Shown: one piece after another, positions 8,438 through 52,168 of the stretch
Numbering within the stretch: position 1 is the first letter of the stretch
How the letters are laid out: the number at the start of each line of letters is the position of its first letter
Assembly (NCBI GenBank): GCA_046542255.1
Contig: JBKHBT010000012.1
Span: forward strand, 1-55,972
Length of the DNA: 55,972 bases
Reading direction: 5' to 3'
Source: Candidatus Zixiibacteriota bacterium
GTDB taxonomy: Bacteria; UBP14; UBA6098; JBKHBT01
Translations under genes and position numbers: made by a program
Notes under the pieces: model-generated
Seen by the model: only the letters and a program-made list of their open reading frames with translations
Told to the model about the DNA's origin: nothing
The model's database searches: none

Positions 8438-9352
8438 TTATTTGATATATGAAACGCGGTCTATGGCTCTTTCCTCGCCATTATCGGCTTCAATGATATA
8501 AACTCCCGAAGAAATGCCATTATCCGGCGTCCATATCCTTTCATACCTTAGGTTCTCGATGAGCTTGCCATCGATATCATAAATTTTGATCATAGCTGAT
8601 GCTGGTGCATCTATGGAAACAGCGCCATTGAAAGGATTGGGAGCTGATGTAATGGTCATATTATCTGGTATATCGATCGTGTTTTCTTTCAGGCCTTCTG
8701 TGCTAAATGATATTAGATAAGAAATATCTTCTGTACCACCACCGCTCATGAAATCGATATTGTATGCATATTCCTTGACAATGCCCACATCTTCGGCTAA
8801 CCAATGACGGAATGAAACATATGTCATCGAATCTTCGAACATCGTTGATGAAACCTCATAATAGGTAGTCATTTCCGTCTTGATGCACTCATATTCGCCT
8901 GCTGGAGCGTTTACTGTCTCAAAGCCTATTATCTCGCCATGAGTTATTATGTATGCATCGACCGGGAAGCCCATGATCTCCATGACTGTATCGACTTCAA
9001 AAACCAACCACTCGTCGCCGATAGAAAATGGATCCGGTAGAACTCTCATCGGAACCTCGAAATCCATGCCCATATCCCCCAGCAATTGCTCAAATAAATA
9101 GATTCCATCGGTTCTAAATTGCATTGTGATAGTATCTGTACTGGTCGTTGTTTCCTGTAAGATGTCAACAGCATCTGCGCCCATATCTGTGTACATATCT
9201 ATCACGGTTTCTGTGCTATTTGTGAAACCATCCGCAGTTGAATCCCGATAAACCCATTCATATCCAAGCCCTACTGGATAAAAATCTCGTGCATCTTCAG
9301 CACATAGGACTATGGCCATAATCACAGAAACCAAAATAATAATTCTTTTCAT
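8438..9352 (-). CDS. Secreted protein with a T9SS-type (Por secretion) C-terminal sorting domain
   Basis: N-terminal signal peptide. The C-terminal ~75 aa (APNPFNGAVSI...IKIYDIDGKLI...GVYIIEA) matches the T9SS CTD pattern. Confidence 0.6.
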   Translation of the reverse strand: MKRIIILVSVIMAIVLCAEDARDFYPVGLGYEWVYRDSTADGFTNSTETVIDMYTDMGADAVDILQETTTSTDTITMQFRTDGIYLFEQLLGDMGMDFEVPMRVLPDPFSIGDEWLVFEVDTVMEIMGFPVDAYIITHGEIIGFETVNAPAGEYECIKTEMTTYYEVSSTMFEDSMTYVSFRHWLAEDVGIVKEYAYNIDFMSGGGTEDISYLISFSTEGLKENTIDIPDNMTITSAPNPFNGAVSIDAPASAMIKIYDIDGKLIENLRYERIWTPDNGISSGVYIIEADNGEERAIDRVSYIK

Positions 9353-9493
9353 AATTCCTCCTTATTTTTCTTCATTTCTCTAAAAGATAAGTCCTATATC
9401 AAACATTGTCAATCAATTAAAGAATTCTGACAAATGCAAGAAAATATTTATTTTATCCTTTCCATATTTTTTTTGATGTTTAGATTATTGACT

Positions 9494-10483
9494 ATGAAAA
9501 TTGGTATAACAACAACAATACCAGTAGAAATAATCTATGCAGCCGGGCATGTCCCCATCGATTTGAATAATTCACTTGTCAGCTCGCAGATTCGAGATAA
9601 ACTGATTTCCAGTGCAGAATACTCGGGATATCCCAGAAATATCTGTGGCTGGATAAAGGGAATCTATGGTTCTGTTATTCGAATGCTCGAAAAGGAAAAT
9701 CTATCTACTATAATTGCTGTAACACAGGGCGACTGTTCTAATACTCATGCCCTAATGGAAACACTGGAGCTTGCCGGTGTCCGCACGATACCATTTGCAT
9801 TTCCATATGATCGTTCCAGAAGGATACTAAAAGAGCAAATCGATGAGCTTGCAGATAAACTTGGCGCCGATTGGCCCAAAATCCGAAAATGGAAAAAACG
9901 TTTGGATGATATAAGGCATCTGGCACATCAAATCGATTTCATGACCTATGACAGCCTGAGATTTACAGGCCAGGAGAATAGCCTCGCACTCATAAATTGC
10001 TCCGATTTCAAATCTTCTCCGGATATTTTCGAAAAGGAACTTAAGGAAATGCTCGAAAAAAGGAAAACACAAAAGCGAGATGATAGTTTGCCCAGAATTG
10101 GTATGATTGGAGTTCCACCGATAATGCTCGATTTCCATGATACCATAGAAAATTATGGCTCACATATTGTTTTCAATGAGGTGCAAAGGCAATTTGCGAT
10201 GCCATTTGATACCGATGATATTTTGGAGCAATACCTTAAATATACTTATCCTTATTCTGTATTTCAAAGGCTGGATGATATCGATGAGCAAATCAAAAAT
10301 CGAAGAATCGATGGGCTTGTTCATTATGTGCAATCTTTCTGTTTTCGACAAATCGAGGATATGATATTCAGAAAGAAGCTCGATATCCCCATTCTCACAA
10401 TCGAAGGCGGCGACAACTTCGAAACAGATGAAAGACAAAAAATGAGAATACAAGCTTTCGTAGAAATGCTGGCTCGAAAATGA
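9494..10483 (+). CDS. 2-hydroxyacyl-CoA dehydratase family protein (HgdB/BcrC/BadD-like component)
   Basis: Start MKIGITTTIPVEIIYAAGHVPIDL resembles HgdB/D-component-family proteins, and it has conserved Cys residues. It overlaps by 4 nt (ATGA) the downstream activase gene. An alternative upstream start is at 9434. Confidence 0.5.
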   Translation: MKIGITTTIPVEIIYAAGHVPIDLNNSLVSSQIRDKLISSAEYSGYPRNICGWIKGIYGSVIRMLEKENLSTIIAVTQGDCSNTHALMETLELAGVRTIPFAFPYDRSRRILKEQIDELADKLGADWPKIRKWKKRLDDIRHLAHQIDFMTYDSLRFTGQENSLALINCSDFKSSPDIFEKELKEMLEKRKTQKRDDSLPRIGMIGVPPIMLDFHDTIENYGSHIVFNEVQRQFAMPFDTDDILEQYLKYTYPYSVFQRLDDIDEQIKNRRIDGLVHYVQSFCFRQIEDMIFRKKLDIPILTIEGGDNFETDERQKMRIQAFVEMLARK

Positions 10484-11253
10484 AAACCTATGGTATAGAT
10501 CTCGGTACAAGGAATATCAAAATTGCAGAATTTTCGAATAATGAGTTCCAATTTCGAATATTTGATACAGTGGATTTTTATAAGAATTATATCATCTCCA
10601 AAGAGGGCAGCTTCGAAATCGATCTCCAAAAATTACATATAAATGGCCAGATATGTGCGACAGGCTATGGACGTGAAATGGCAAATCTCACTGGCATTAG
10701 AAAGATATCAGAAATAATGGCTCATACAAAAGGCACAATATGGCAAACTGGGCTTTCTGATTTCATCCTCATCGACCTGGGTGGCCAGGATTCCAAAATA
10801 ATAGACATCGAAAACTACAATGTGCAGGATTTCAGGACAAATGACCGCTGTGCAGCATCGACAGGCCGATATCTTGAAAATATGGCGAATATTCTGGGAA
10901 TGAGTATCGATGAAATATCCAAATATCATCGAAATCCGGAGAAATTATCCAGCATTTGTGCTGTTTTTGGCGAGTCGGAACTTCTTTCGAAAATCGCTAT
11001 GGGTAGCTCGATTGAAAGTCTCGCATCGGGTGTGAACCATGCTCTTGTAAACAGGCTAAAGCCCTTTATTGCATCATTTATGTCCAAAACGATCGTCCTT
11101 ACCGGTGGTGTATCTAAAAGTGAAGCTATCCAAAAAATAATAGAAGAAAACTTCCAAACCGACCTTATAATCCCCCAATTTCCGCAGTTTAATGGAGCAA
11201 TCGGAGCGATAGCGGATATTATAGATATTGACATCACAAAGAGTATAATATAG
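10480..11253 (+). CDS. CoA-substrate-specific enzyme activase (BadF/BadG/BcrA/BcrD/HgdC ATPase family)
   Basis: N-terminal GIDLGTRNIK (ASKHA ATPase phosphate-1 motif) and DRCAASTGRYLE, matching the CAAGTGRFLE cluster-helix motif of HgdC-type activators. Confidence 0.7.
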   Translation: MKTYGIDLGTRNIKIAEFSNNEFQFRIFDTVDFYKNYIISKEGSFEIDLQKLHINGQICATGYGREMANLTGIRKISEIMAHTKGTIWQTGLSDFILIDLGGQDSKIIDIENYNVQDFRTNDRCAASTGRYLENMANILGMSIDEISKYHRNPEKLSSICAVFGESELLSKIAMGSSIESLASGVNHALVNRLKPFIASFMSKTIVLTGGVSKSEAIQKIIEENFQTDLIIPQFPQFNGAIGAIADIIDIDITKSII

Positions 11254-11415
11254 TCTTATATCCTTTATTTACAATAAATTACAATATTCATCTAAACAAA
11301 TATGCAAATAAAACAACTCTTTTAGCTAATTTTATGGAGCTTACGCATTTTTTACTTGACAAATGTTTTCTTATCGCTAAATATTATTAAAGGAATTTGA
11401 TGCACTGGAGATACT

Positions 11416-12420
11416 ATGCTGGGTGAGTTTTATAGTTTTGAAAAAAAAGATTTTGCAAAATTTATCTATAAATTAACAGAATATGGCAAAATCGCCAATT
11501 TTTTACCCCTTAAAGGCAAAAATCCTGCCCTTTCATTCATAAGTGAAAAAAATCATATCCAATTAGAAGATTTCGATTTCGATAGGCAATTGTCTATGGA
11601 CTCTCCGAGATTGCTTCTGCAGAAGCCATATGAGCAAATTGGTAAATTTGTCAACCCTACTGAAAAAGTCGTTTTCTTTGGTTTAAAAAACTGTGATATA
11701 TACTCTATCCTTATTCACGACAAAGTCTTTTTGTATAAAGAGCCTATCGATGAGAATTACAAAGAAATCCGAAATAATTCTATTATTGTTTCTTTCGATT
11801 GCCGAATTATTTGCGAGAATTGTTTTGCATCTTCTTTTCTTGACAATCCCTATCCAAGCGGCAATTTTGATTTGAATATTTCTATTGTCGATGATAGATT
11901 CCTGGTTCAAACCGGTTCCCAAAAGGGTGTTGAGATTATCGGCCAGCTCGAAAAAAAGAAAGCTAGCAATTCTGAAAAGCAACAGCTTTTCGATAAGCGC
12001 GAGATGCTAAAAACAGAATTTCAGAAGAGAAAAATCGACCTGGAAAATTTCTATCAGATAGAGAAATTAGAGTTTATAAATGAAGGCCTCGATGCTATTA
12101 CAGAACCCGATAAATGCCTTAATTGCGGCGCTTGCGATTATATTTGCCCCGCTTCTAATCAATTCAAGATACAATCGGGGTCCGAATATATTCATTCTAA
12201 ATGGTCAACGTTTTTTCAAAATTCAAACTTAGCTAGTTACAAATTCAAAGAGAGATTTATCTATAAATTTCTATATTTCAGGTATTTGTATAATTGCATC
12301 GCCTGTAGCGGATGCGGAAGATGTACAAATATCTGTCCGGGGGGGATCGATATAGCAGATATCCATAGAAAGCTAAATGCTTTCTTAGAAAGGCGTATAA
12401 ATGAAAACATCTCTATATGA
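11416..12420 (+). CDS. Fe-S oxidoreductase subunit, AsrA/HydB-like (C-terminal 2x[4Fe-4S] ferredoxin motifs)
   Basis: CLNCGACDYICPA and CIACSGCGRCTNICPGG motifs near the C-terminus. 334 aa. Translationally coupled (overlaps) with the next gene. Confidence 0.5.
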   Translation: MLGEFYSFEKKDFAKFIYKLTEYGKIANFLPLKGKNPALSFISEKNHIQLEDFDFDRQLSMDSPRLLLQKPYEQIGKFVNPTEKVVFFGLKNCDIYSILIHDKVFLYKEPIDENYKEIRNNSIIVSFDCRIICENCFASSFLDNPYPSGNFDLNISIVDDRFLVQTGSQKGVEIIGQLEKKKASNSEKQQLFDKREMLKTEFQKRKIDLENFYQIEKLEFINEGLDAITEPDKCLNCGACDYICPASNQFKIQSGSEYIHSKWSTFFQNSNLASYKFKERFIYKFLYFRYLYNCIACSGCGRCTNICPGGIDIADIHRKLNAFLERRINENISI

Positions 12421-13252
12421 TTTTGTCCCTGCTCAAATAATATCTATTCGTCAGGAGTCGAAAAAAACAAATACCTATTCTTTAAGGGTCGAAGAGCCTA
12501 TCGATTTTGCAATCGGGCAATTTATCATTGTGAATATGCCTTCGATTGGACAGTTTCCAGTTATGGGACATCCGATTTCAAAAAGCGGAGATATTTTAGA
12601 AATCACACTTTCCAAGGATAATGAACTTGAGAAAATATTTTGCATACAAAAGCACATCTCGGATACGATTATGATACGAGGCGGCTATGGCAATGCCTTA
12701 GATATATCATCTATGAAGGATAAAAATCTCCTTTTTATCGCATCCAATAGCGGCATAATCAATATAAAGCCAATATTTTACGGACTGCTGCAAGATAGAG
12801 ACAATTATCAAAAGATTGATATCAATTATAGTTCATGCAATTACGATGAATTGATTTACAAAGAAGAACACTCCCACTGGCAAGCTATCGATGATACACA
12901 ACTTACGATTTCACTCGAAAAGCCGAAAAAGGACTGGTCGGGTTATAAAGGAAACATATTAGACCTTTTATTAAAAAACCAGTTAAAATTAAAGAATACC
13001 ATAGCCTTTATTTCAGTAGAATCAAGATTATCAAGTTCAATAATGGAATATTTGCTTGCTCAGAATTTTGATAAGAAAAACATTTTCATAGTCTTATTAG
13101 AGGATATCAATTGCGGAGTTGGCAAATGCAGCAAATGCAATATCGGCCCCTATCTTAAATGCAAAGATGGGCCTATAATGAATTATTCTGATATTGAAAG
13201 ATTTCTTCTCAGCCACAAAAAAATGAAGAATATAGAAAGTGCATATGTCTGA
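12401..13252 (+). CDS. FAD/NAD(P)-binding oxidoreductase subunit, PyrK/HydG/AsrB-like with a C-terminal [2Fe-2S] motif
   Basis: TYSLRV (an RxYS-like FAD motif), GGYGNAL (NAD-binding) and C-terminal CGVGKCSKC...C. Confidence 0.6.
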   Translation: MKTSLYDFVPAQIISIRQESKKTNTYSLRVEEPIDFAIGQFIIVNMPSIGQFPVMGHPISKSGDILEITLSKDNELEKIFCIQKHISDTIMIRGGYGNALDISSMKDKNLLFIASNSGIINIKPIFYGLLQDRDNYQKIDINYSSCNYDELIYKEEHSHWQAIDDTQLTISLEKPKKDWSGYKGNILDLLLKNQLKLKNTIAFISVESRLSSSIMEYLLAQNFDKKNIFIVLLEDINCGVGKCSKCNIGPYLKCKDGPIMNYSDIERFLLSHKKMKNIESAYV

Positions 13253-14765
13253 TAAAAAATTAAAATGCCAATTCTGTAGCCTACAGGATGATATTTATAT
13301 TAACGAGTTATCATCCAATGATAAAAAAGATGCATTTTGTATCGACTATGATTCAACAAAGTCTGGAGTTTGCGCAAGAGGCCATTTGATGGCTAAATTA
13401 TATTCACATCCAAATAGAATAAAGGAGCCGCTTCTTTCTAATGAGAGAGCTTCATATGGCCTTGCCATCGAATCCCTCAGTCGGATGCTGGATAAAAATA
13501 CAGCATTTCTTCTCGGCCCAAGTTTGACTCTTGAGGATGCCTTATCAGCTATTAAGTTCTCTAAAGAATTGGGAAGTGACTTTGTATCTCTTGCTATTCC
13601 TGAAGATGAGACTGTTTCATTTCTCATGAATAGATTTTCTTTTGAGAGTTTCAATGACTCTAATCTAGTGATTATTGTAGGTGATGTATTAAGTACCCAT
13701 CCTACCATTTCTCGTTATTTCCTTTCTTTTTTCAAAAATGAAAATAAATCTTTGGTAGTAATCGATAATCACGAAACCGTTACATCTGGTTCGGCAGATT
13801 TGTTTTTACAGATATTACCCGGACAGGTTGGCGCATTCATTAAAGAGCTTGTCCGATATAATAATGAAGAATGGTCGAACCTGGATAAATATCGAATCGA
13901 TAAAAGCGAAATCGAGAGTTTTACCGATTTGATGAATGATGCTAAAAACCCGATAATTCTCTTTTCTAATAATTTTGGCCATTTCTATCAGCCAGAAAGA
14001 ATTGGCTATCAAGCGCAGAAACTGGCTCAATCCCTCGGTGATTCACATAATTTTGCATACCTCCCTATTGGTTCGAATAGTAGAGGCATATACAGGCTTC
14101 TTCGCCAGAACGATATGAAAAAGCTGCCTGAAACATTAAAAGCAATAGAATCCGGCAAGGTTAGCAAAATTGTTATGCTTCAAACAGACATCACTGAAGC
14201 AGTCCCAGCAATCGATCTTTTTAATATTGAAAGTATTATCCAGAGCACTTTATTGCCAACAGCTATTACGCCTTACTGTCATATAGTACTGCCAGGATTG
14301 CTTCTCGGTGAAAAAAAGGGCACATTATTGACTCTTGAAGAAAAACTCGAGAGACTAAATCCTATCAAGAATAAATACAACATCCTTCAAGAAAATCGCA
14401 TATTTTCTGGAATGGCGGGAATCTTAAATGGCATTACTCAAAAAGAAATAGCAGAAATTTTGAAAAGTTACCGGCAACCACCTAAAAAATCTGGCACTTT
14501 TTTTGCTATAAACAAACCTGTTTATATCGGCTTTTCTGAACCATTTCATCATTCAGATGGCTCTTTAACACGCTCCCTTTTACAAAATGATACCGATAAA
14601 TTCAAAGAAAAACTTTCTTTGAAGAAGGCAATGGATAATCCTGTCATAACTGATTTTGACCAAAATGATGAAAAATCGATTATAATGACACCGGTACATA
14701 TTCCAGAATTTAGAAGGCTTTTTACTCGTAAATTTGAACCCGGTATAATGCAGATGAAAGGCTAA
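13239..14765 (+). CDS. Truncated MopB-family (molybdopterin oxidoreductase/formate-dehydrogenase-like) protein. It has the N-terminal Fe-S domain but no apparent catalytic Cys/Sec and no C-terminal molybdopterin-dinucleotide-binding domain.
   Basis: N-terminal C-x2-C-x(n)-C...CARG. Motifs IIVGDVLSTHPT (the G.N...THP block), VVIDNHETVTSGSADLFLQILPGQ (the vvDPR.T.TA..AD.hL.irPGTD block) and HIVLPGLLLGEKKGT. Only 508 aa. Confidence 0.55.
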   Translation: MHMSDKKLKCQFCSLQDDIYINELSSNDKKDAFCIDYDSTKSGVCARGHLMAKLYSHPNRIKEPLLSNERASYGLAIESLSRMLDKNTAFLLGPSLTLEDALSAIKFSKELGSDFVSLAIPEDETVSFLMNRFSFESFNDSNLVIIVGDVLSTHPTISRYFLSFFKNENKSLVVIDNHETVTSGSADLFLQILPGQVGAFIKELVRYNNEEWSNLDKYRIDKSEIESFTDLMNDAKNPIILFSNNFGHFYQPERIGYQAQKLAQSLGDSHNFAYLPIGSNSRGIYRLLRQNDMKKLPETLKAIESGKVSKIVMLQTDITEAVPAIDLFNIESIIQSTLLPTAITPYCHIVLPGLLLGEKKGTLLTLEEKLERLNPIKNKYNILQENRIFSGMAGILNGITQKEIAEILKSYRQPPKKSGTFFAINKPVYIGFSEPFHHSDGSLTRSLLQNDTDKFKEKLSLKKAMDNPVITDFDQNDEKSIIMTPVHIPEFRRLFTRKFEPGIMQMKG

Positions 14766-14767
14766 AA

Positions 14768-15208
14768 TTGAATGCTAAGCTCTCAAAAAGGCTTTATCTA
14801 GAAAAAGATCTTTGCATAGGCTGTATGGCATGTGTGTTTGCGTGTAAATCAGCTCATGATGGAATAAACCATATGCAATATTGCAATTTTGAATCCAATT
14901 TCTATCTTCCCAATCCTTGCCGAAATTGTAATATCCCAATATGCAAGGATGTTTGCCCGGTAGATGCAATCGAGAAAACCGGAAATGGAACAATCAAATT
15001 AAACAAGTCAAAATGCATCGCATGTGGCTCCTGTCATATTGCCTGCCCATTTGGTTCGGTCGTAGAAAATGATAAATTAGTTTATTCAATATGCGATCTT
15101 TGTTATGATACTATATACCAGAACAATCCAGCGTGCATTGCAACATGTCCAACAAATGCTTTGAAAACAAAAAGACTTAAAATTAAAGAATCAGAGAAAA
15201 AATTATAG
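14768..15208 (+). CDS. 4x[4Fe-4S] ferredoxin-type subunit (HycB/FdhB-like)
   Basis: Four Cys clusters of the CxxCxxCxxxC(P) type in 146 aa. Confidence 0.7.
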   Translation: MNAKLSKRLYLEKDLCIGCMACVFACKSAHDGINHMQYCNFESNFYLPNPCRNCNIPICKDVCPVDAIEKTGNGTIKLNKSKCIACGSCHIACPFGSVVENDKLVYSICDLCYDTIYQNNPACIATCPTNALKTKRLKIKESEKKL

Positions 15209-15655
15209 ATGAAAACAATAGCTGAAAAAATCACTAAATTTCTTGGCGAAAAAATCGATATCCATATCGAAACAATGGGCAATCGAATCTATATATCGGT
15301 CGCTATTGATGATCTTATTGAATTGATGAGTCTGGTGAAAAATGAACTTAATTGCGAATTTTCCGCTGCTTCTGGTTTTGCAGAAAGTGACGGTTTTGTT
15401 CTTGTGTATATGCTTTTTAATAATGAAAAAAGTTATATGGCCAATATTAGAACAACATTAAAAGATGGAAAAGCAATCTTTCCATCTATCAAAGAAATCT
15501 ATCCCGAAGCAAATTGGGCTGAGAAAGAGCTTGCAAATAGATATAATATCGAGTTCAAAGATAGTCAAAACAAAACTTCCGAGAAAAATGAAAACGATGG
15601 CATCATCGATGTATATGCATCTGTGTTAGACCTTGATGTCGAAAGTATTATTTGA
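15209..15655 (+). CDS. NuoC/EchD-like 30-kDa-subunit-family protein (complex I/group 4 hydrogenase accessory subunit homologue)
   Basis: The C-terminal WAEKELANRYNIEF matches the WHEREVYDMFGIVF block of NuoC/HycE-N. 148 aa. Confidence 0.5.
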   Translation: MKTIAEKITKFLGEKIDIHIETMGNRIYISVAIDDLIELMSLVKNELNCEFSAASGFAESDGFVLVYMLFNNEKSYMANIRTTLKDGKAIFPSIKEIYPEANWAEKELANRYNIEFKDSQNKTSEKNENDGIIDVYASVLDLDVESII

Positions 15656-16217
15656 TATGGCTAATGGTATCATAAATAAGATTAGTACTGGATTACGAAA
15701 TATTATATCATCTGAAGAGCAGTCAAAAGAAGAGAATAGAATTAATGATGAGATAATCCTTTTCGATCCAGACAATTGCATTTTATGCGGCCTTTGTGCC
15801 AAGCATTGCCCAATAGACTCCATTCAAATACACGACATAAATGAAATACGTACAATAATTAGAGATCATTCAAAATGCTTGAAGTGCAATAACTGTATCG
15901 ATATCTGCCTAATTGGAGATGGTTCAATACAACAAGAACTAAACTGCATAGAGTCTGAAGAAATCGATAGTATTAGCAAAGAGCTAATCAGATGCGAGAA
16001 ATGTAGAAAACCAATCGGATCAAAATCATATCTTGAACATGTCGGAAATAAAATGTCCGATAAGATCTATTCCAATAAAACCCTACTCTACTTAAAATTT
16101 AAAAAATTAGGCATCATGGGCGAGAAAGAAAAATATCAAACGCGTCATTCTATCAATAATGATATTGAAATAATCTGTCCCAAATGCCGTATCAAACTTG
16201 AGATAGAGCAAAAATAA
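15633..16217 (+). CDS. 2x[4Fe-4S] ferredoxin (NuoI/EchF-like) with a C-terminal CxxC...CxxC zinc-ribbon
   Basis: CILCGLCAKHCP and CLKCNNCIDIC motifs, plus CEKCRKP...CPKCR at the C-terminus. Confidence 0.6.
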   Translation: MMSKVLFDMANGIINKISTGLRNIISSEEQSKEENRINDEIILFDPDNCILCGLCAKHCPIDSIQIHDINEIRTIIRDHSKCLKCNNCIDICLIGDGSIQQELNCIESEEIDSISKELIRCEKCRKPIGSKSYLEHVGNKMSDKIYSNKTLLYLKFKKLGIMGEKEKYQTRHSINNDIEIICPKCRIKLEIEQK

Positions 16218-16300
16218 TTTTTTAAAAAGCTCTCTTTAATCTTGTAGAATCTGTTCATGGATATTAAATTTAAATTAACATTTATAAAGGAGGTTCTATT

Positions 16301-17692
16301 ATGGAACTCAAGAGATTACTGGTTTTATTTTCTATCATTGCCATCCTCTTATTTGCTTTCGGTTGCCCGGATGATGATGATGATGATGACAATAATAGCA
16401 ATGATGATGACTCAGCCATGTACGAAGCATCTGGCGCAGTCGATTCTAATGGAGAATTATTGCTTGAAACAGAAAGTGGCGCAAAGCTTGCAATTCCTAG
16501 ATATGCTGTACCATTGACTATCGAAGAAGAAACAGGCACAATGGTCTTTTCTATAGAAAGAGATTTGTCTATAAGCCCTGTTTTGGATGAAGGGGCATCG
16601 AGTGCTTCTGATGTCTATCGCTTTGGGCCTGATGGTTTCGTTTTTGCTTCACCAGTTAGAGTAACAATACCTATCGATAATTTCGATGAGTCCAAGGAAT
16701 ATGAGATTTATCGTATTAATCAGACAACAGGTGAAGCCGAAGTATATTCATCATTTATCGATGAAGAAAATGCCACGATTTCAGCATATACATATCATCT
16801 TTCACCCTGGGCAATCTCAGAAAGAGAATACCGGGAACGCTCTGGTGGGGCCGTTCGCATTTCAAATACGAGTTCGACACATGCACTTCATGTCAGCGTA
16901 GCGGATTTCGTACCGGCCTATCCCATGGCAGATACAGTTACCTGTTCGCTCTATGATGCATATTTTCCGGCATTAGGCTCCGGTTCTTTTGTGGCCAGTA
17001 GCGGACTTTGGCATCTTCCACAGGGCACATATACCCTATGTTTCCGCATGTCGGAACAGGGCACTTTCATGAATCCACCAGGCGATCCTGTTCGCTGGTA
17101 TGAGCATGATGTTATAATTGATCAGCCCTGGTCAAGAACCAGTCCAAATATTTCGGATGAGTTCTCATATGGCCGTCCATCCGATGATGCTGTCGATGGC
17201 TTTTGTGATTGCCGTCCAGAACCGACTCCTTCAGCTGGAACCGGCGATGTTCAGGTAACATTGACATGGCATAATTCTGATCCGATAGACCTCGACCTCT
17301 GGATAATTGAACCAGATAGTACAGTATGTAATTATGCTACAACCCCAACTGCAAGCGGTGGCACTTTAGATAGAGACAATCTCTGTGGATCAACCTATAT
17401 CAATGGAAGGCCCGAGAATATCTTCTGGAGCTCCGCACCTGAAGGTACATATCGCGTTCAAGTTGACTGGTTTAGCGATTGTGGCAATGGCATGAGTTCA
17501 CAGGGCTATGATGTCAGAATTGTAAATGGTTCAGATGTCAGGACATTCTCAGGAACAATCCAGGCAGAAGAGACAATCGATATTGCAACATTTACCGTAT
17601 CAAGGCCTTCATTAGCAAAATCTTCGGGTAATTCGATATTCTATATCGGCCAGAAGACAGAAAGAATTGCCGAAAGGCCACCGAAATATTAA
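16301..17692 (+). CDS. Secreted or lipoprotein with a poly-Asp linker and a C-terminal proprotein-convertase P-domain-like beta-sandwich
   Basis: Signal peptide ending in FGC, followed by a D7NNSND3 tract. The C-terminus DLDLWIIEPDSTVC...GTYRVQVDW fits the P-domain/PPC pattern. Confidence 0.5.
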   Translation: MELKRLLVLFSIIAILLFAFGCPDDDDDDDNNSNDDDSAMYEASGAVDSNGELLLETESGAKLAIPRYAVPLTIEEETGTMVFSIERDLSISPVLDEGASSASDVYRFGPDGFVFASPVRVTIPIDNFDESKEYEIYRINQTTGEAEVYSSFIDEENATISAYTYHLSPWAISEREYRERSGGAVRISNTSSTHALHVSVADFVPAYPMADTVTCSLYDAYFPALGSGSFVASSGLWHLPQGTYTLCFRMSEQGTFMNPPGDPVRWYEHDVIIDQPWSRTSPNISDEFSYGRPSDDAVDGFCDCRPEPTPSAGTGDVQVTLTWHNSDPIDLDLWIIEPDSTVCNYATTPTASGGTLDRDNLCGSTYINGRPENIFWSSAPEGTYRVQVDWFSDCGNGMSSQGYDVRIVNGSDVRTFSGTIQAEETIDIATFTVSRPSLAKSSGNSIFYIGQKTERIAERPPKY

Positions 17693-17842
17693 GTGTTTAG
17701 CTAGATTTCATTTTTTTCTGAAAAAAAAAAGAAAAAAGCTTGCATAATAAATTATACGCCCTATATTAATAATGATAAGTTCTTATTAATGTAGTTTTGT
17801 TTCGGGGTTAGGGCACTGATACTAAATTTTTTAAGAACTTAG

Positions 17843-17872
17843 GGCGGCTTTTATAAAGCCGCCTTTTTTATT
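17843..17872 (+). terminator. Rho-independent terminator
   Basis: Stem GGCGGCTTT/AAAGCCGCC followed by TTTTTTATT. Confidence 0.65.
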
Positions 17873-18111
17873 ATATGGGGCTTTAGTCTGAAGTTCCACA
17901 GCCATTTCAAAAGCTACCCCAATCCACGCAAGGCCTTGCGCTGATTTGGGGGTTCACTTGGCATGACTACATTTCGATTTTCTCGATTAACTCCAGTGCT
18001 TTATGCTGCTTCTTATCTTGCTTGGTGACAGTTTCAAATGTCAGATTCTTGCTTTTTTCATGTATAATTTTGCAAGTGTTTTTCACAATTGTCGATAATG
18101 ATGAAAGAAGT

Positions 18112-18228
18112 GTTTATTTTTTATAGCCATATATTATAGAAAATATATATATTTTATAATATTTTTTGTAATGGTACCACTTATATTTTAGCCAAAAAGT
18201 ATGACAAGACGCAACAGCGCATTGCCTG
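18112..18228 (+). repeat. Copy C (degenerate) of the ~115-bp repeat family
   Basis: TTTATAGCCATATATTATAG...TTTTAGCCAAAAAGTATGACAAGACGCAACAGCGCATTGCCTG aligns with copies A and B. It lies in a convergent intergenic region. Confidence 0.6.
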
Positions 18229-18770
18229 AAGCTGTGATAGGTTTGTTTATCTTCTTCGGAATGCTTTGCTCTGCTGGATTTTTTGGCTTTCGCGCTTATT
18301 ACGGTTTTCAATCTCTGGAATGACCTGTGTTTGTAATAAATTATTTTCATCATAAGAGCTAAAAAGGTATTTCGTTTTTAAATTATCGACAATCGCCCAG
18401 GGCGTGGTCAAAAAGGGGTTATCGAAGATCAAAAAATTCGATTCTATTCGAATTCGAGAAAAAAATATTTGATTCTCCAAGAATCAAACTCATAATAAAT
18501 AATGTCCTATTGTATTCATTAACAACGACTTGCACAGCCCTGCAAAAAGGATAGAAATCGAAGTTCTTTCATGTAAAAATTATTTTGACTGGATAAAACA
18601 GAATCTCAAAATAAATCGTTTTTTAGGGATAAATAGAAATGCAATTGAAACACAGCTCTGGGTTGGAGTTTTCGCATGATCAATTTAAGCTCTTATGAAG
18701 GCAGAAAAGTGATGTGTTTGTTTTGATTCTTCGAGACAGTAGTGAAATGCATAAGAAAAACAATAATAAC

Positions 18771-21700
18771 CTATTTTTGCAAAACTTTCTCCACTACCTC
18801 ACGAAGACATTCCTTAGTATAAGGCTTTACAACTACTTCCTTGAATCCATAATCCGAATAATTTACCAAAACCTCGTCCTCAGCATATCCGCTGGAAACA
18901 ATAACATTTGCATTTTTATCGATTTTTAGTATTTCAGTTATTGTCTCTATTCCGCCTTTTCCACCTGGAATTGTAAGATCCATTATGATAATATCAAAAC
19001 CCTGGCCTTGTTGGTATGCCTTTTGAAAAATCTCGATAGCCTCTTCTCCTGATGCTGCAGTAGCAGTCTCGAAGCCCATGCTGACAAGACGATATTTGGT
19101 AACGCGTCGGACAATTTCTTTATCGTCCATTATCAATGCCCTTTTGCCTTCGAATTTTTTGTGGGGTTTTGGAGTTACTTTGGAATTCTTCTTCTTTTGT
19201 TCTTTTTCTATGGCAGGAATAAGCAGTTCGAAAATCGTACCTTTTCTCGCCGAAGACTTTACCTCGATATAACCCCCATGCTTTTTGATTATGGAATAAA
19301 CCGTTGTCAAGCCAAGCCCGCCTTCAGAATCTTTTGTGCTAAAATAAGGATCGAATATCTTATCGATATGGTTTTCGGAAATACCATGTCCCTCATCTGC
19401 AAATGTTATCTTGATATACTTCCCTGATTGAAATTGGGAGAAATTTTGAACATCGAGTTCAATATTTTCTAAATCTATGTATAAATTACCGCCATCTGGC
19501 ATGGCCTCTTTGGCATTTAATGTTAGATTAGAAAATACCTGCTGAATCTGGCCCTTATCGACATTCGCAATCCAAAGACCATCGGGACAATTATAAACAG
19601 GTTTCACATTGCTACCCGAAAGGTCAAATTGGACGATATCCTTCAGCACCTCGATCAAACGAATATCCTGTTTTACTGGAGCCCCCCCTTTCGAAAATGT
19701 TAGGAGTTGTTTGCTCAGACGCTTTGCCATATCCAATGATGCTTCTGAATCCTGAAGGAATTTCCATGCTGGATGCGATGGCTCGAGATTGTCTTTTACA
19801 ATCGAAAGATTACCAAAAAGGCCCATAAGAATATTATTAAAATCATGAGCGATACCACCTGCCAGAGTTCCGAGACTTTCTAATTTCTGAGTACGAATCC
19901 TTTGATCTTCGAGATTCTTTCTTTCGGTTATATCGCGAACCGTTGCCAATACTTTATCATCCTCGAAAGGAACCATTTGGGCATTGTAAATTTTTTCTTC
20001 TGAACCTTTTAAGAATTTATAGTCGAAAACCCTTTTGTTTTTAGTCTCGATAGTTTTTGCGATGTTTTCTAATATAATTTTCTGCTGTTCTTCTGAAAAA
20101 CCAGCATCCTTGATATTCTTGCCGATTATTTCTTCGGAAGATATAAGCAACTCTTCATCTATCTCGGCTTTGAAATCGATATATGTCCCATAGCTATCGA
20201 GAATAAACATCATCTCTGGCATCGCATCAAGAAGTGCTTGATTTCTATTGTAGGTGATTTCTAATTGCTTCTCCTGTTCCTTTTTTTCGGTAATGTCCCT
20301 AACCATTGAAAGCACCTGCCCTTCGCCACAAGGAACCATTCTTACTTCAAAGAAATGCTGCTTTTCATCTAATATCAGAGAATATTCATAATTTTGATTT
20401 TCCTTGGACTCCAGAGTTTTTATCACTTTCTTTTTGGTTAATTCAGATAGCTTTTTGGGCAAAACCTCATCAATTTTCTTACCAATGAACTCCTTCTCCG
20501 GAACAAGCAGCTTTTCGCTTTGCGGTGCGTGATTATCAATAAATCTGAATTGGTCATCTATTCTAAATAATAAATCGGGAATAGCGGCTAAAGTTGCACT
20601 ATATCTCTTTTCATTTTCACGGATCGCTTCTCGCATCTTGTATTCTTTTGTTACATCTCTAAAAACGAGTACGGTGCCTAAGATATTGCTATTTTTATCT
20701 TTTATGGGAGCTGCTGAATCTGCGATTTGATATTTCTTGCCACTTTTGGAAATAAGGGCAGTATGATTGGCAAGCCCAATAATTTTACCTGTTTGTAATA
20801 CTTTGCCTACCGGATTATCGACTTTTTTCAACGTATTGGAATCTACAATATTAAATACTTCTGTTAATCCTCTTCCAATTGCATCTTCAATCTTCCATTC
20901 AGTTAATTTTTGGGCGATAGGATTCATAGATTCAATATTACCCTTGGTGTCGGTAGTTATAACTGCATCGCCAATAGAATTGAGTGTCGTCTCCAATCGG
21001 TCTCGGCTTTCACTTAGCTGTAATTCGGTTTTTTTACGTTCGGTAATATCATCTATGATAGACAAAATCCTATTATGGCCATCCATCTTCAAGATTTCAG
21101 CAAAGAAAAGTCCGATTAAAATTCCACCGCTTTTCTTTTGTAATTCAACCTCGATACCATCTACTCTGCCCTTTTCTGCTAATTCATTTTTTATTTTTGT
21201 TCTGTTTTCTTGAGAAAGAATCTTCAAGTCAATGGATGTTTTGCCAATTATTTCGGCTCTTTTATAGCCAGTGGTTTTAATAAAATTACTATTAATTTCA
21301 ATATATCTATCTGTATCGATATCCTCGATACACATAAGTAACGGTCCATTATGAAACGCCCTGGAAAACAATTCTTCAGACCTTCTAAGCTCCTTTTCCA
21401 TTTCCTTTCTTTTGCTAATATCTTCAAAAACAGTAACGAAATGCGAGCTATCAGTTGAGAATGCAGAAATGGAAAAATATTTATTAAAAGGTTTGAAATA
21501 GACTTCAAATCGGTAAGGTAGTCCTGTTCGGGCAACTTTAGTGAAGATTTCAAGATAAGGCGGCCTGTCTGTTCCATAGACTTCGGTTGAAAATTTACCA
21601 ACTATATCTTCGGTTCTAAGCTCCAGAATATTTTCATACGCAAGGTTTACATCAGTGATACGATAATCCACTGGATTGCCAAGTTTATCATGGACAATCT

Positions 21701-22226
21701 CGTGGATTGCAACTCCTTCGTTCATATTTTCGTATAGTTTGCGATATTGCTTTTCGCTTTTTTTTATCTTTTCCCGCAAAAGGAAACTATTTGTGCTATC
21801 TCGAAAGACAATCACAACTCCTTTTATTTTTCCAAAACTATCGAATATCGGCGCGCCAGAATCTGAAATATGGTATTTATCACCATTTTTAGAAATTAAA
21901 ATGGCATGATTGGCCATATCGACTACAATACCTTTTTTTAATACTTTTTTTGCAGGAGAATCTATTCGTATGCCGTTTTTAGAATCCACAAGATGCAAAA
22001 TCTTGGATATTTTATGGCCAATAGCATCATCAGCATTCCACCCGGTGAGTCTTTCTGCTTCAGGATTGAGGCCGGTAATAATTTCTTTCGCATCACAAGA
22101 AATGACAGCATCACCCATGGAATTGAGAATCATTCGTAGATTATCGATCTTACTAGATAATGCTTTTATCTTCTCTTTGGCCTGTTGTAAATCGCTAATA
22201 TTCGAATCAATATGACCACTGTCCAT
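18771..22226 (-). CDS. Multi-PAS hybrid sensor histidine kinase with a C-terminal receiver domain
   Basis: Several PAS repeats, HisKA (LAGGIAHDFNNIL), HATPase (GxGLGL) and a receiver domain (RALIMDD...IIMDLTIPG). Confidence 0.85.
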   Translation of the reverse strand: MDSGHIDSNISDLQQAKEKIKALSSKIDNLRMILNSMGDAVISCDAKEIITGLNPEAERLTGWNADDAIGHKISKILHLVDSKNGIRIDSPAKKVLKKGIVVDMANHAILISKNGDKYHISDSGAPIFDSFGKIKGVVIVFRDSTNSFLLREKIKKSEKQYRKLYENMNEGVAIHEIVHDKLGNPVDYRITDVNLAYENILELRTEDIVGKFSTEVYGTDRPPYLEIFTKVARTGLPYRFEVYFKPFNKYFSISAFSTDSSHFVTVFEDISKRKEMEKELRRSEELFSRAFHNGPLLMCIEDIDTDRYIEINSNFIKTTGYKRAEIIGKTSIDLKILSQENRTKIKNELAEKGRVDGIEVELQKKSGGILIGLFFAEILKMDGHNRILSIIDDITERKKTELQLSESRDRLETTLNSIGDAVITTDTKGNIESMNPIAQKLTEWKIEDAIGRGLTEVFNIVDSNTLKKVDNPVGKVLQTGKIIGLANHTALISKSGKKYQIADSAAPIKDKNSNILGTVLVFRDVTKEYKMREAIRENEKRYSATLAAIPDLLFRIDDQFRFIDNHAPQSEKLLVPEKEFIGKKIDEVLPKKLSELTKKKVIKTLESKENQNYEYSLILDEKQHFFEVRMVPCGEGQVLSMVRDITEKKEQEKQLEITYNRNQALLDAMPEMMFILDSYGTYIDFKAEIDEELLISSEEIIGKNIKDAGFSEEQQKIILENIAKTIETKNKRVFDYKFLKGSEEKIYNAQMVPFEDDKVLATVRDITERKNLEDQRIRTQKLESLGTLAGGIAHDFNNILMGLFGNLSIVKDNLEPSHPAWKFLQDSEASLDMAKRLSKQLLTFSKGGAPVKQDIRLIEVLKDIVQFDLSGSNVKPVYNCPDGLWIANVDKGQIQQVFSNLTLNAKEAMPDGGNLYIDLENIELDVQNFSQFQSGKYIKITFADEGHGISENHIDKIFDPYFSTKDSEGGLGLTTVYSIIKKHGGYIEVKSSARKGTIFELLIPAIEKEQKKKNSKVTPKPHKKFEGKRALIMDDKEIVRRVTKYRLVSMGFETATAASGEEAIEIFQKAYQQGQGFDIIIMDLTIPGGKGGIETITEILKIDKNANVIVSSGYAEDEVLVNYSDYGFKEVVVKPYTKECLREVVEKVLQK

Positions 22227-22481
22227 GATTGTCCTAACTTAAGTCTAATTATAAGTTATAGGCTATACCATTTTTTCTTGACACTATTAAAACAATTTTT
22301 TGCTCTTCCTCATTTTAATTATACACAAATTTCCTAAAATGTCAATTTTTTTTACAAATTAATTCATGATAACAAAAATTTTAGAAGGTCTTTGGATACA
22401 ATTGCTCCATCAAAATTTTTCTTTCAATTTAATTCAGATTTTGTATTTTCTATAAAGGTATTTAATATTGAGGATAATTTA

Positions 22482-52041: not shown

Positions 52042-52168
52042 GCTTTCCTAACATCCAATAAATAAATAATTTTTCTTGACAATTCATGCATTTTAATACA
52101 TATTTACACCATTGAGACAAAGTTAAACAAAATCAATAACTATAAAAATGATCGCAAAGGAGACGGAA

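What the first reader, a model, noticed from the sequence alone, without database searches (positions are those of the whole stretch)
13239..14765. MopB-family protein truncated to about 500 aa and lacking the active-site Cys/Sec
The N-terminal Fe-S domain and the conserved MopB blocks are present (IIVGDVLSTHPT; VVIDNHETVTSGSADLFLQILPGQ; HIVLPGLLLGEKKGT). The protein ends at about 508 aa, so the C-terminal molybdopterin-dinucleotide-binding domain is missing. The region where Fdh enzymes carry the Mo/W-ligating Cys/Sec (about 130-150) has no Cys or His motif. It is an uninterrupted ORF, so this is not a TGA-Sec misannotation. Candidates include a NuoG-like non-catalytic electron-conduit domain or an FwdB-like split arrangement whose partner (FwdD-like) gene is absent from the operon.
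Basis: partly seen in the sequence, partly recalled or inferred. Interest (0 to 1): 0.55.

Follow-up and report, generated by a model that had tools for sequence, protein, structure and literature searches.

The report
Catalytically dead formate-dehydrogenase-like connector subunit
This gene encodes a shortened formate-dehydrogenase-like protein that has lost all catalytic residues, and it sits in a six-gene iron-sulfur operon that is the stripped-down remnant of a membrane-bound hydrogenase complex, so it most likely acts as an electron-wire or scaffold subunit rather than an enzyme.

Summary
The ORF is real: 506 aa from ATG 13245, ending at 14765, and identical in two assemblies. It has a MopB fold. 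It lacks the Fdh Sec/Cys, His and Arg.

Two details of the finding need correction.
- The C-terminal cap domain is shortened, not absent.
- The Fe-S motif is Cys-Cys-Asp-Cys, not four Cys.

The protein is not a one-off. It belongs to an uncharacterised family of 520-620 aa Fdh-derived proteins (126 representative clusters), and every member examined lacks the catalytic triad.

In relatives, the gene lies in asrA-like / asrB-like / MopB / cooF-like clusters. These are fused to complete Mrp-Mbh-type group 4 [NiFe]-hydrogenase operons of Zixibacteria, WOR-3 and others. A 2019 paper called this cluster type "enigmatic".

In this window, and in one 34%-identical relative, all membrane subunits and the NuoB/NuoD-like hydrogenase subunits are gone. 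Six genes remain: beta, gamma, MopB, HycB-like, NuoC-like and NuoI-like.

Best reading (about 0.5): a non-catalytic, single-cluster connector. This is analogous to the NuoG C-terminal domain, the StnC Fdh-like domain and ElpA, but it is a member of none of them.

Retained Mo/W cofactor, a decaying relic, or docking to a hydrogenase encoded elsewhere cannot be excluded.

The parts
11356..11385 (+). Promoter-like site (TTGACA-18-AATATT) ahead of the six-gene operon
   Evidence: Consensus scan. It lies in the 163-bp gap after the upstream gene. This is a consensus match only.
11416..12420 (+). beta subunit, AsrA / sulfhydrogenase-beta-like Fe-S protein (334 aa)
   Evidence: NCBIfam matches ShyB/HydB/AsrA. 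PDB match to 9nez_B, sulfhydrogenase beta, E 5e-18. Both ferredoxin-type CxxCxxCxxxCP motifs are kept. The extra cysteines present in full-cluster relatives (DCS..CFC, CPxCxCF, WDxC) are mostly lost.
12401..13252 (+). gamma subunit, AsrB / sulfhydrogenase-gamma-like (283 aa)
   Evidence: PDB match to 9nez_C, E 3e-27. NCBIfam matches AsrB/HydG. The four [2Fe-2S] Cys are invariant. The relatives' VVGGGVGxAP nucleotide motif reads FIASNSGIINIKP here.
13245..14765 (+). The finding: Fdh-derived MopB-fold protein, 506 aa (alternative GTG start at 13239)
13266..13373 (+). N-terminal [4Fe-4S]-type motif C8-x2-C11-x3-D15 ... C43-A-R45-G
   Evidence: Codons checked. In the family, position 15 is Cys in 59 and Asp in 10 of 73; C43 is invariant; position 45 is R/K in 72 of 73.
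13602..13607 (+). E120-D121, the positions that align with Sec/Cys-His of formate dehydrogenases
   Evidence: Profile-to-PDB alignments to 9t1s_L (CARLXHS), 7qv7_S (CARLCHA) and 8rqz_C. Column counts: position 120 is never Cys; position 121 is D63/E7 of 73.
14517..14762 (+). Shortened C-terminal cap (domain IV remnant), residues about 425-506
   Evidence: Family alignment. Segment lengths 52 against median 71, and 17 against median 28. No PF01568 hit. Low pLDDT at residues 450-480 and 497-506.
14768..15208 (+). HycB/CooF/HydN-like polyferredoxin (146 aa, 16 Cys in four cluster motifs)
   Evidence: Pfam Fer4_11; NCBIfam matches DmsB/HydN/FDH-beta. It is 37-40% identical to the same subunit of full hydrogenase clusters. 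Motifs were read from the translation.
15209..15655 (+). NuoC/MbhK-like 30-kDa subunit (148 aa) with a replaced C-terminus
   Evidence: PF00329, E 6.5e-11. The conserved GHPDxRxLLLADDxPEGxYPLR segment is replaced by an acidic tail shared only with the other reduced cluster, L003.
15633..16217 (+). NuoI/HycF/MbhN-like two-cluster ferredoxin (194 aa) with a C-terminal CxxC...CxxC
   Evidence: hydrogenase-4 subunit H, FHL Fe-S subunit, NuoI. Both cluster motifs are invariant. The N-terminal segment conserved in full clusters is absent.

Best explanation
The ORF encodes a formate-dehydrogenase-derived MopB-fold protein that no longer does Fdh chemistry. It most likely serves as a single-cluster electron-transfer and scaffold subunit.

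It belongs to an uncharacterised family. In most members this protein is the connecting subunit between an AsrA/AsrB-like NAD(P)H flavoprotein pair and a HycB/CooF-like polyferredoxin. That polyferredoxin feeds an Mrp-Mbh-type group 4 [NiFe]-hydrogenase.

In this Zixibacteria lineage the NuoH-, NuoB-, NuoD-like and all antiporter-like subunits have been deleted. What remains is a probably soluble six-protein iron-sulfur module:
- gamma: [2Fe-2S]
- beta: two [4Fe-4S]
- MopB: one Cys3Asp cluster
- HycB-like: four clusters
- NuoI-like: two clusters
- NuoC-like: no cluster

Shown by tool results: fold, family membership, loss of the catalytic triad, gene order, which subunits were deleted, and which cluster ligands are retained.

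Inferred: that no Mo/W cofactor is bound; that the six proteins form one complex; and that electrons flow between a nucleotide or ferredoxin-type partner and an unidentified acceptor.
For: 1. MopB fold.
- AF2 model pLDDT 89.4.
- ElpA is shown to be molybdopterin-free and Fdh-inactive (PMC12350162). The StnC Fdh-like domain is inactive (PMC10482914).

2. Fdh-derived.
- The family profile hits F420-Fdh at E 8e-81 and HDCR FdhF at E 8e-69.

3. Loss of the catalytic triad in all 73 aligned members.
- The Sec/Cys position is E/P/A/D/S/T/G/N and never Cys.
- His is replaced by Asp or Glu.
- The Arg333 position is never Arg.

4. Context of relatives.
- The order is beta, gamma, MopB, HycB, NuoH, NuoB, NuoC, NuoD, then antiporter/Mrp subunits and NuoI.
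- The NuoD-like proteins keep both NiFe Cys motifs.
- Rex-like genes lie upstream in two loci.

5. All six window proteins are orthologous to those subunits.

6. The same six-gene reduced set occurs in a second lineage, L003, whose MopB is 34% identical.
- All its ORFs are intact.
- The two MopBs form a clade. Their root-to-tip lengths (0.43 and 0.47) are like those of full-cluster members (0.39-0.47).
- The window MopB keeps 25 of 33 highly conserved family positions (range 22-33).

7. Derived changes shared by the two reduced clusters fit loss of partners.
- The NuoC C-terminal motif is replaced by a common acidic tail.
- The NuoI N-terminal segment is lost.

8. In the window protein the cap domain is shortened, and family positions F183 and E195 are lost.
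Against: - Absence of the cofactor is not shown.
- The family conserves its own versions of canonical MopB motif positions: G146-D147, D174, T180, P350/E356/G359 and H435..T442.
- It also conserves an acidic residue at 121 (70 of 73) and R/K45 next to the cluster. These could reflect retained bis-PGD or nucleotide binding.
- No terminal acceptor for the reduced module is identified.
- The gamma nucleotide-binding motif and a beta cluster are eroded. The NAD(P)H input may therefore be lost as well.
- Only 56 kb of the genome was visible, and the genome is not in the searchable genome collection.
- Only two lineages with the reduced operon were found.
Confidence: 0.5

Rival explanations
1. The protein, and its family, still binds Mo/W-bis-PGD or at least a guanine nucleotide. 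It would catalyse a reaction other than formate oxidation, using the conserved Asp/Glu at position 121 as metal ligand or acid-base residue. Electrons would pass to NAD(P)+ through beta/gamma or to the polyferredoxin.
For: - Position 121 is Asp or Glu in 70 of 73 members.
- Position 45 is R or K in 72 of 73. It aligns with the Lys after the fourth cluster Cys of the Fdh chains (CIKG).
- Family-specific conservation holds at canonical MopB motif positions.
- Relatives still hit PF01568 and PF04879.
- Mycobacterial NuoG keeps a GTP-like ligand in the vestigial site (PMC10068793).
- From general knowledge, MopB enzymes with an Asp ligand (NarG) or with no protein ligand (arsenite oxidase) exist.
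Against: - The exact ligand column is hypervariable, and the catalytic Arg is absent.
- In the window protein the cap that covers the pterins is shortened.
- The PGxE motif reads PGQV in the window protein and is unrecognisable in L003.
- No Moco-biosynthesis genes lie in the 56-kb window. This is weak evidence.
Confidence: 0.2
2. The six proteins are not a free-standing module. The hydrogenase and membrane subunits are encoded elsewhere in the genome, and the six proteins still dock onto them (a split operon).
For: - Only 56 kb of the MAG is visible.
- The genome is absent from the searchable collection.
- NuoC- and NuoI-like subunits are otherwise known only as parts of complex-I-type assemblies.
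Against: - The NuoC segment conserved in all full clusters is replaced in both reduced lineages. From structural knowledge of complex I and MBH, that segment packs on NuoD.
- NuoI lacks its conserved N-terminal segment.
- In every full cluster examined the genes are contiguous.
- No such genes appear in the window or within 8 kb either side in L003.
Confidence: 0.13
3. The operon is an evolutionary relic on its way to loss. The MopB gene has no current function.
For: - The catalytic and membrane partners are deleted.
- The gamma nucleotide motif is degenerate, and beta has lost a set of cluster cysteines.
- L003 beta and gamma are truncated to 200 and 226 aa.
- The MopB cap is shortened.
- The arrangement is rare: two lineages among 1.84 billion representatives.
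Against: - Six intact, tightly packed or overlapping ORFs persist in 36%-GC DNA. At that composition roughly 7% of random codons would be stops (my estimate).
- They are kept in two lineages that have diverged to 34% identity.
- The remaining Fe-S ligands are retained throughout.
- There is no excess branch length.
- The two lineages share derived features, which point to a reduced common ancestor.
Confidence: 0.12
4. An FwdB-like split formylmethanofuran dehydrogenase subunit whose FwdD-like partner is encoded elsewhere.
For: - A weak TIGR03129 match over residues 9-280.
- FwdB chains are among the structural neighbours.
Against: - The score is 27.5 bits against a cut-off of 327.8.
- The profile is 60 orders of magnitude closer to Fdh than to FwdB.
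- There is no active-site Cys.
- A cap-domain remnant is fused to the protein.
- There are no FwdA/C/D-like neighbours in any of the loci examined.
Confidence: 0.02

Closest known systems
Unclassified 'molybdopterin oxidoreductase' of the enigmatic group 4 [NiFe]-hydrogenase clusters of Saganbacteria RX5A, Zixibacteria and Omnitrophica (Matheus Carnevali et al. 2019, PMC6349859)
   Same: - Same gene neighbourhood logic: asrA-like, asrB-like, MopB with a single 4Fe-4S domain, then cooF-like.
- The relatives found here sit in exactly such clusters, with Mrp and hydrogenase subunits.
- The window's six proteins are their orthologues.
   Different: - The window operon has lost NuoH-, NuoB-, NuoD-like and all Mrp/antiporter subunits.
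- The paper treats the protein as molybdopterin-containing and does not report loss of the Sec/Cys-His-Arg triad. It notes only that the protein lacks key nitrate-binding residues and could not be classified as an Fdh.
- I did not test the Saganbacteria protein itself.
ElpA of the Elp-Hdr complex of Methanothermobacter marburgensis (PDB 8rvu_D; PMC12350162)
   Same: - A truncated FdhA homologue shown to be molybdopterin-free and Fdh-inactive, kept as a structural partner of a flavin/Fe-S subunit.
   Different: - ElpA is about 340 aa and lacks the whole pterin-binding region. The window protein keeps domains II and III and a cap remnant (506 aa).
- ElpA partners with an F420-dependent FdhB homologue and Hdr, not AsrAB-like and HycB-like proteins.
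- It is an independent, archaeal lineage.
C-terminal MopB-like domain of NuoG/Nqo3 (complex I) and the Fdh-like domain of StnC / NfnABC
   Same: - Fdh-related fold retained without Fdh catalysis inside an electron-transfer assembly next to an NAD(P)H-oxidising module.
- The single N-terminal cluster corresponds to the cluster proximal to the pterin site (N7 in NuoG; PMC10068793).
   Different: - No NuoG N-terminal 2Fe-2S/4Fe-4S domains.
- TIGR01973 score is 45.8 bits against a cut-off of 470.
- The partners are AsrAB-like, not NuoEF-like.
- The sequence profile is much closer to Fdh than to NuoG.
FdhF-HycB module of formate hydrogenlyase (E. coli FHL-1, PDB 7z0t) and the Fdh-Mfh-Mnh type of Thermococcus
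   Same: - A MopB subunit followed by a HycB-type polyferredoxin, then HycF/NuoI-, HycG/NuoB- and HycE/NuoCD-like subunits.
- FdhF 7z0t_A gives the highest query TM-score (0.76).
   Different: - No Sec/Cys, His or Arg.
- Extra NAD(P)H-type beta/gamma subunits are present.
- In the window there is no hydrogenase at all.
- The comparison with the Thermococcus cluster rests on my own knowledge and was not tested here.

Membership tests
Mo/W-bis-PGD formate dehydrogenase catalytic subunit (FdhF/FdhA) | Sec or Cys metal ligand followed by His (U140-H141 in E. coli FdhH) | tested here: not met
   These positions align to E120-D121. The ligand column is never Cys in 73 family members.
Mo/W-bis-PGD formate dehydrogenase catalytic subunit (FdhF/FdhA) | Catalytic Arg in the PLRGQNNVQG motif (Arg333 in FdhH) | tested here: not met
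   This position is Pro274 in YLPIGSNSRG. The column is F/Y/L/P/T across the family and never Arg.
Mo/W-bis-PGD formate dehydrogenase catalytic subunit (FdhF/FdhA) | Four-Cys CX2CX3C...C [4Fe-4S] domain (PF04879) | tested here: not met
   The motif is C8-x2-C11-x3-D15...C43, and there is no PF04879 hit. An Asp-ligated or 3Fe cluster is possible but was not tested.
Mo/W-bis-PGD formate dehydrogenase catalytic subunit (FdhF/FdhA) | Molybdopterin oxidoreductase domains II/III (PF00384) | tested here: met
   PF00384 scores 32.8 bits against a cut-off of 24. The family profile matches Fdh chains at E 8e-81.
Mo/W-bis-PGD formate dehydrogenase catalytic subunit (FdhF/FdhA) | Complete C-terminal dinucleotide-binding cap (PF01568) | tested here: inconclusive
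   There is no Pfam hit. A remnant aligns with the family's domain IV but is about 30 residues shorter than the family median.
Mo/W-bis-PGD formate dehydrogenase catalytic subunit (FdhF/FdhA) | Bound Mo or W bis-pyranopterin guanine dinucleotide | not testable with these tools
   This needs metal and cofactor analysis or an experimental structure.
NuoG (complex I 75-kDa subunit) | Passes the NuoG equivalog model; N-terminal 2Fe-2S and 4Fe-4S domains; encoded with NuoE/NuoF | tested here: not met
   TIGR01973 scores 45.8 bits against 470, matching only model positions 265-589. The protein has no N-terminal extension. Its neighbours are AsrAB-like.
FwdB/FmdB (formylmethanofuran dehydrogenase subunit B) | Passes TIGR03129; active-site Cys; separate FwdD and adjacent FwdA/C | tested here: not met
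   TIGR03129 scores 27.5 bits against 327.8. There is no Cys at the ligand position. A cap remnant is fused. No fwd neighbours were found.
MopB subunit of the AsrAB/CooF-linked Mrp-Mbh group 4 [NiFe]-hydrogenase clusters (uncharacterised family) | Sequence relatedness to members and shared loss of the Fdh triad | tested here: met
   Matches to members range from E 4e-66 to 1e-28. The protein forms a clade with P0002, next to the Zixibacteria members. The triad is absent family-wide.
MopB subunit of the AsrAB/CooF-linked Mrp-Mbh group 4 [NiFe]-hydrogenase clusters (uncharacterised family) | Gene order asrA-like, asrB-like, MopB, cooF/hycB-like | tested here: met
   Window genes 11416-15208 have the same order as L006, L008, L009, L011 and L012.
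MopB subunit of the AsrAB/CooF-linked Mrp-Mbh group 4 [NiFe]-hydrogenase clusters (uncharacterised family) | Adjacent NuoH/NuoB/NuoD-like hydrogenase subunits and Mrp antiporter subunits | tested here: not met
   Only NuoC- and NuoI-like genes remain, and there is no room for remnants. The same holds in L003.
ElpA | FdhA homologue of about 340 aa lacking the pterin-binding region, partnered with FdhB-like ElpB and Hdr | tested here: not met

The most novel reading that the evidence does not exclude
The six-gene operon encodes a free-standing, soluble descendant of the peripheral arm of an Mrp-Mbh-type respiratory hydrogenase. A chain of about ten Fe-S clusters is built from AsrAB-like, dead-Fdh, HycB-like, NuoI-like and NuoC-like subunits, and it works without any hydrogenase or membrane module.

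It would be the first case of NuoC/NuoI-type subunits functioning outside a complex-I-type assembly. The parent family would be an independent re-run of the step by which an Fdh became the NuoG connector of complex I.
Probability: 0.35. Interest if true: 0.7.

Novelty: new variant of a known kind. Interest (0 to 1): 0.5.

Why it matters
Catalytically dead Fdh-like proteins kept as connectors are known from complex I (NuoG), Stn/NfnABC and, since 2025, ElpA. Here the same fate appears to have befallen the Fdh subunit of a formate-hydrogenlyase-like Mrp-Mbh hydrogenase. That subunit has an NAD(P)H-type flavoprotein pair attached.

This is the kind of intermediate invoked for the origin of the complex I electron-input module, so the family gives a living system in which to test that scenario.

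The window adds a further step. The hydrogenase and the ion-pumping part were discarded, while the Fe-S arm, including NuoC- and NuoI-like subunits, was kept in two deeply diverged lineages.

For annotation, it shows that [quoted passage not shown] labels on these Zixibacteria, WOR-3 and Saganbacteria genes should not be read as formate metabolism.

Tried and rejected
- Single-sequence AF2 gave pLDDT 33 and was unusable. It was replaced by a model built on a 73-sequence family alignment.
- The word-indexed protein search found only the query itself. Run with the family alignment, it was swamped by generic Fdh/Nap proteins. The exhaustive HMMER search was what found the family.
With the single protein it found nothing in genome contigs. 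The rest of this MAG could therefore not be inspected.
- The afdb50 fold library was unavailable.
- A Rex operator search near the operon gave only chance-level matches, and none in the promoter gap.
- An Rfam scan of 9000-18800 found nothing above noise, including no SECIS-type element. A SECIS is irrelevant anyway, because there is no in-frame TGA.
- FwdB-like and NuoG-member readings were rejected on model scores and architecture.
- A NarG-type (Asp-ligand) affinity was considered. The fold is much closer to the Fdh/Nap/NuoG type.
- A truncation artefact was rejected. There are two concordant assemblies, the C-terminus aligns with the family's end, and the next gene starts 2 nt after the stop.
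- I could not decide from sequence alone whether the pterin or nucleotide pocket is occupied.
Full report
**1. The observation**

The + strand ORF 13239..14765 exists. The likely start is ATG 13245. It overlaps the stop of the upstream gene as ATGTCTGA and gives 506 aa.

Gene callers in two assemblies give the identical 506-aa product in the same gene order. These are NCBI GCA_964582205.1, named [quoted passage not shown], and Logan SRR11308339.

There is no internal stop or TGA. The stop codon is followed 2 nt later by the next gene, and no other frame continues the protein.

Pfam finds only PF00384 (E 5e-8). It finds no Fe-S domain (PF04879) and no cap domain (PF01568). NCBIfam gives only far-sub-threshold matches: the C-terminal part of NuoG, NasC, Fdh-alpha and FwdB.

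**2. Fold and family**

An exhaustive HMMER search of 1.84 billion representative proteins found 126 relatives at E <= 1e-3. Only 5 reached E <= 1e-30, and the best was 36% identical. Nearly all are 520-620 aa.

With a 73-sequence alignment of these relatives, AlphaFold2 gave a confident model: pLDDT 89.4 and pTM 0.92. Low confidence is limited to residues 450-480 and 497-506.

Structural neighbours:

| Method | Matches |
|---|---|
| Foldseek | NuoG, NfnABC, then FdhF and FwdB, all within E 1e-21 to 1e-18 |

A profile of the family matches solved structures as follows:

| Target | E-value |
|---|---|
| F420-dependent Fdh (9t1s_L) | 8e-81 |
| HDCR FdhF (7qv7_S) | 8e-69 |
| NuoG | about 1e-30 |
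| FwdB | 1e-21 to 1e-24 |

The family is therefore Fdh-derived. It is not a NuoG or FwdB subgroup.

**3. The active site**

In the profile alignments to three different Fdh-type chains, the Sec/Cys-His pair (CARLXHS, CARLCHA, CSRYCQS) aligns to the family's "p-e-D". In the window protein this is E120-D121.

Across 73 members:

| Position | Fdh equivalent | Residues seen |
|---|---|---|
| 120 | Sec/Cys ligand | E18, P10, A9, D8, S8, T7, G4 and others; never Cys |
| 121 | His | D63, E7 |
| 274 | Arg333 | F/Y/L/P/T; never Arg (Pro in the window protein) |

The loss of the Fdh catalytic triad is a family trait, not a peculiarity of this gene.

The N-terminal cluster motif is C8-x2-C11-x3-D15...C43. 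The third ligand is Cys in 59 members and Asp in 10. The Asp form also occurs in members that sit in complete hydrogenase clusters: P0004-P0007, P0011 and P0012. It is therefore compatible with function. Whether the cluster is a Cys3Asp [4Fe-4S] or a [3Fe-4S] was not testable.

**4. The C-terminus**

Family members carry a recognisable cap domain: HxGDGSxTR ... GDxVxVxS..G ... PxHFPxxRxLF. Several hit PF01568.

The window protein keeps HHSDGSLTRS and PVHIPEFRRLF, and it ends where the family ends. The segment between them has 52 residues against a median of 71. The tail has 17 against 28.

The remaining shortening, from a median of 570 aa to 506 aa, is spread over loops in segments 43-121, 174-245 and 377-439. 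The domain is reduced, not missing. No separate FwdD-like partner is needed to explain it.

**5. What the family is attached to**

I read the genomic context of eleven family members.

- Seven lie in the same long cluster. Its order is:
  - often a Rex-like gene first;
  - an AsrA/HydB-like beta subunit and an AsrB/HydG-like gamma subunit;
  - the MopB protein and a HycB/CooF-like polyferredoxin;
  - NuoH-, NuoB-, NuoC- and NuoD-like subunits;
  - a large antiporter-like subunit, MbhD/E, MnhB, a NuoK-like subunit and a second antiporter-like subunit;
  - sometimes MnhE/F/G, then a NuoI-like subunit.
- The NuoD-like proteins keep both [NiFe]-binding motifs, RxCGICSxSH and DPCYxCTER. These are genuine Mrp-Mbh-type group 4 hydrogenases.
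- Database names of close relatives are "hypothetical protein" from Zixibacteria and WOR-3.
- This cluster type was described once, as an "enigmatic" group 4 hydrogenase of Saganbacteria RX5A, with nearest relatives in Zixibacteria and Omnitrophica. [quoted passage not shown]
- I found no later characterisation in the held literature.

**6. What is special in the window**

Here the operon runs from 11416 to 16217 and contains only six genes: beta, gamma, MopB, HycB-like, NuoC-like and NuoI-like. They are tightly packed or overlapping, with no space for remnants of the missing genes. All six are orthologues of the corresponding subunits of the full clusters.

The closest relative, P0002 in locus L003, has a MopB 34% identical by BLASTP. 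It has exactly the same six-gene set, followed by unrelated genes.

Evidence that the two reduced clusters share history and are maintained:
- The two MopBs form a clade next to the Zixibacteria full-cluster members, with ordinary branch lengths.
- The window protein keeps 25 of the 33 most conserved family positions. Other members keep 22-33.
- Both NuoC-like proteins have replaced the conserved C-terminal GHPDxRxLLLADDxPEGxYPLR segment with a shared acidic tail, D(V/I)Y(A/E)SVxDLDxE.
- Both NuoI-like proteins lack the N-terminal segment conserved in full clusters, but they keep both cluster motifs.

From structural knowledge of complex I and MBH, those two segments face NuoD and the membrane arm. 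This is inference.

Other changes in the window operon:
- Beta keeps its two ferredoxin-type motifs but has lost most of the additional cysteines present in relatives.
- Gamma keeps all four [2Fe-2S] Cys. Its GGGxGxxP-type nucleotide motif reads SNSGIINIKP.
- The HycB-like protein has 16 Cys in four cluster motifs.

The pattern is deletion of the catalytic and membrane parts, erosion of some cofactor sites, and retention of a chain of about ten Fe-S clusters.

**7. Mechanism**

In the parent complexes, the MopB protein most plausibly occupies the FdhF position of a formate-hydrogenlyase-like arm. There it would no longer oxidise formate. Its single cluster and its bulk would connect the NAD(P)H-type flavoprotein pair to the polyferredoxin that leads to the hydrogenase.

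Three cases show that Fdh-like folds can persist as non-catalytic connectors:
- ElpA is experimentally molybdopterin-free and Fdh-inactive (PMC12350162).
- The Fdh-like domain of StnC is catalytically inactive (PMC10482914).
- NuoG, which in mycobacteria even keeps a GTP-like ligand in the old cofactor site (PMC10068793).

That last case also offers a non-catalytic reason for the family's conservation of nucleotide-motif positions.

In the window lineage the arm seems to have become a stand-alone, probably soluble Fe-S module. Its donor and acceptor are unknown.

A single-subunit 2-hydroxyacyl-CoA-dehydratase-like gene and a BcrAD-type activator lie immediately upstream, at 9434-11253. They are a speculative client for low-potential electrons.

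I put about 0.5 on the non-catalytic connector reading. The alternatives are:

| Reading | Probability |
|---|---|
| Retained Mo/W or nucleotide cofactor with new chemistry around the conserved D121 | 0.2 |
| Docking to a hydrogenase encoded elsewhere in the genome | 0.13 |
| A slowly decaying relic | 0.12 |
| FwdB-like split enzyme | 0.02 |

**8. Limits**

- Cofactor content cannot be read from sequence.
- Only 56 kb of the genome is visible, and the MAG is not in the searchable genome collection. The rest of the window holds housekeeping genes and no hydrogenase, Moco or Fwd genes.
- The tree is a simple neighbour-joining tree on saturated distances.
- The reduced arrangement rests on two lineages.

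**9. Verdict**

The real story is the family and its context.

This is a new variant of a known kind, namely catalytically dead Fdh-like connector subunits. It sits in a hydrogenase-less derivative of an already noted but uncharacterised group 4 hydrogenase cluster. It is moderately interesting for the evolution of complex-I-type machines and for correcting "formate dehydrogenase" annotations in candidate phyla.

Noticed in passing
window 9434-10483 and 10480-11253 (+): A single HGD-D (2-hydroxyacyl-CoA dehydratase D-component-like) gene and a BcrAD/BadFG-type activator ATPase lie directly upstream of the Fe-S operon, separated by a 163-bp gap. A BcrAD gene also lies about 7 kb from the reduced cluster in L003. 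This is a possible consumer of low-potential electrons, but the idea is pure speculation.
   Followed up: no
window 52531-53325 (+), with small ORF 52148-52507 upstream: An encapsulin shell protein (Linocin_M18, E 7e-86) sits between pdxA (49177-50112) and pdxJ (53521-54246). The 119-aa ORF just upstream could be its cargo.
   Followed up: no
window 16301-17692 (+): A lipoprotein-like protein with a poly-Asp run after the signal-peptide Cys and a ZU5 domain (E 8e-8) follows the operon. A strong terminator-like hairpin lies at 17841-17865. The gene is not conserved next to the L003 cluster.
   Followed up: partly
L009 429-1061 and L011 3238-3870: A Rex-like redox-sensing repressor gene (Put_DNA-bind_N + CoA_binding) lies directly upstream of the beta gene in two full hydrogenase clusters. 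This hints at NADH/NAD+ control of the parent complex. No Rex box was found at the window operon.
   Followed up: partly
L012 12995-13315 and 16408-16929: Two PF05635 (23S_rRNA_IVP, four-helix-bundle) genes are inserted inside an otherwise standard hydrogenase cluster, between the NuoC- and NuoD-like genes and after the large antiporter-like gene.
   Followed up: no
window 15633-16217 (+), residues about 121-185; L003 10436-10807: The NuoI/HycF-like proteins carry a C-terminal CxxC ... CxxC pair that resembles a zinc ribbon, in addition to the two [4Fe-4S] motifs. The first CxxC is also present in the full-cluster homologues, as far as those loci reach.
   Followed up: no
window 18771-22226 (-) and 22392-24905 (+): Two large multi-PAS hybrid histidine kinase / response-regulator proteins are encoded divergently, just downstream of the operon region.
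   Followed up: no
window 41141-44050 (+): A 969-aa ORF with no Pfam match at E <= 1e-5 lies just before the ribosomal-protein gene block.
   Followed up: no
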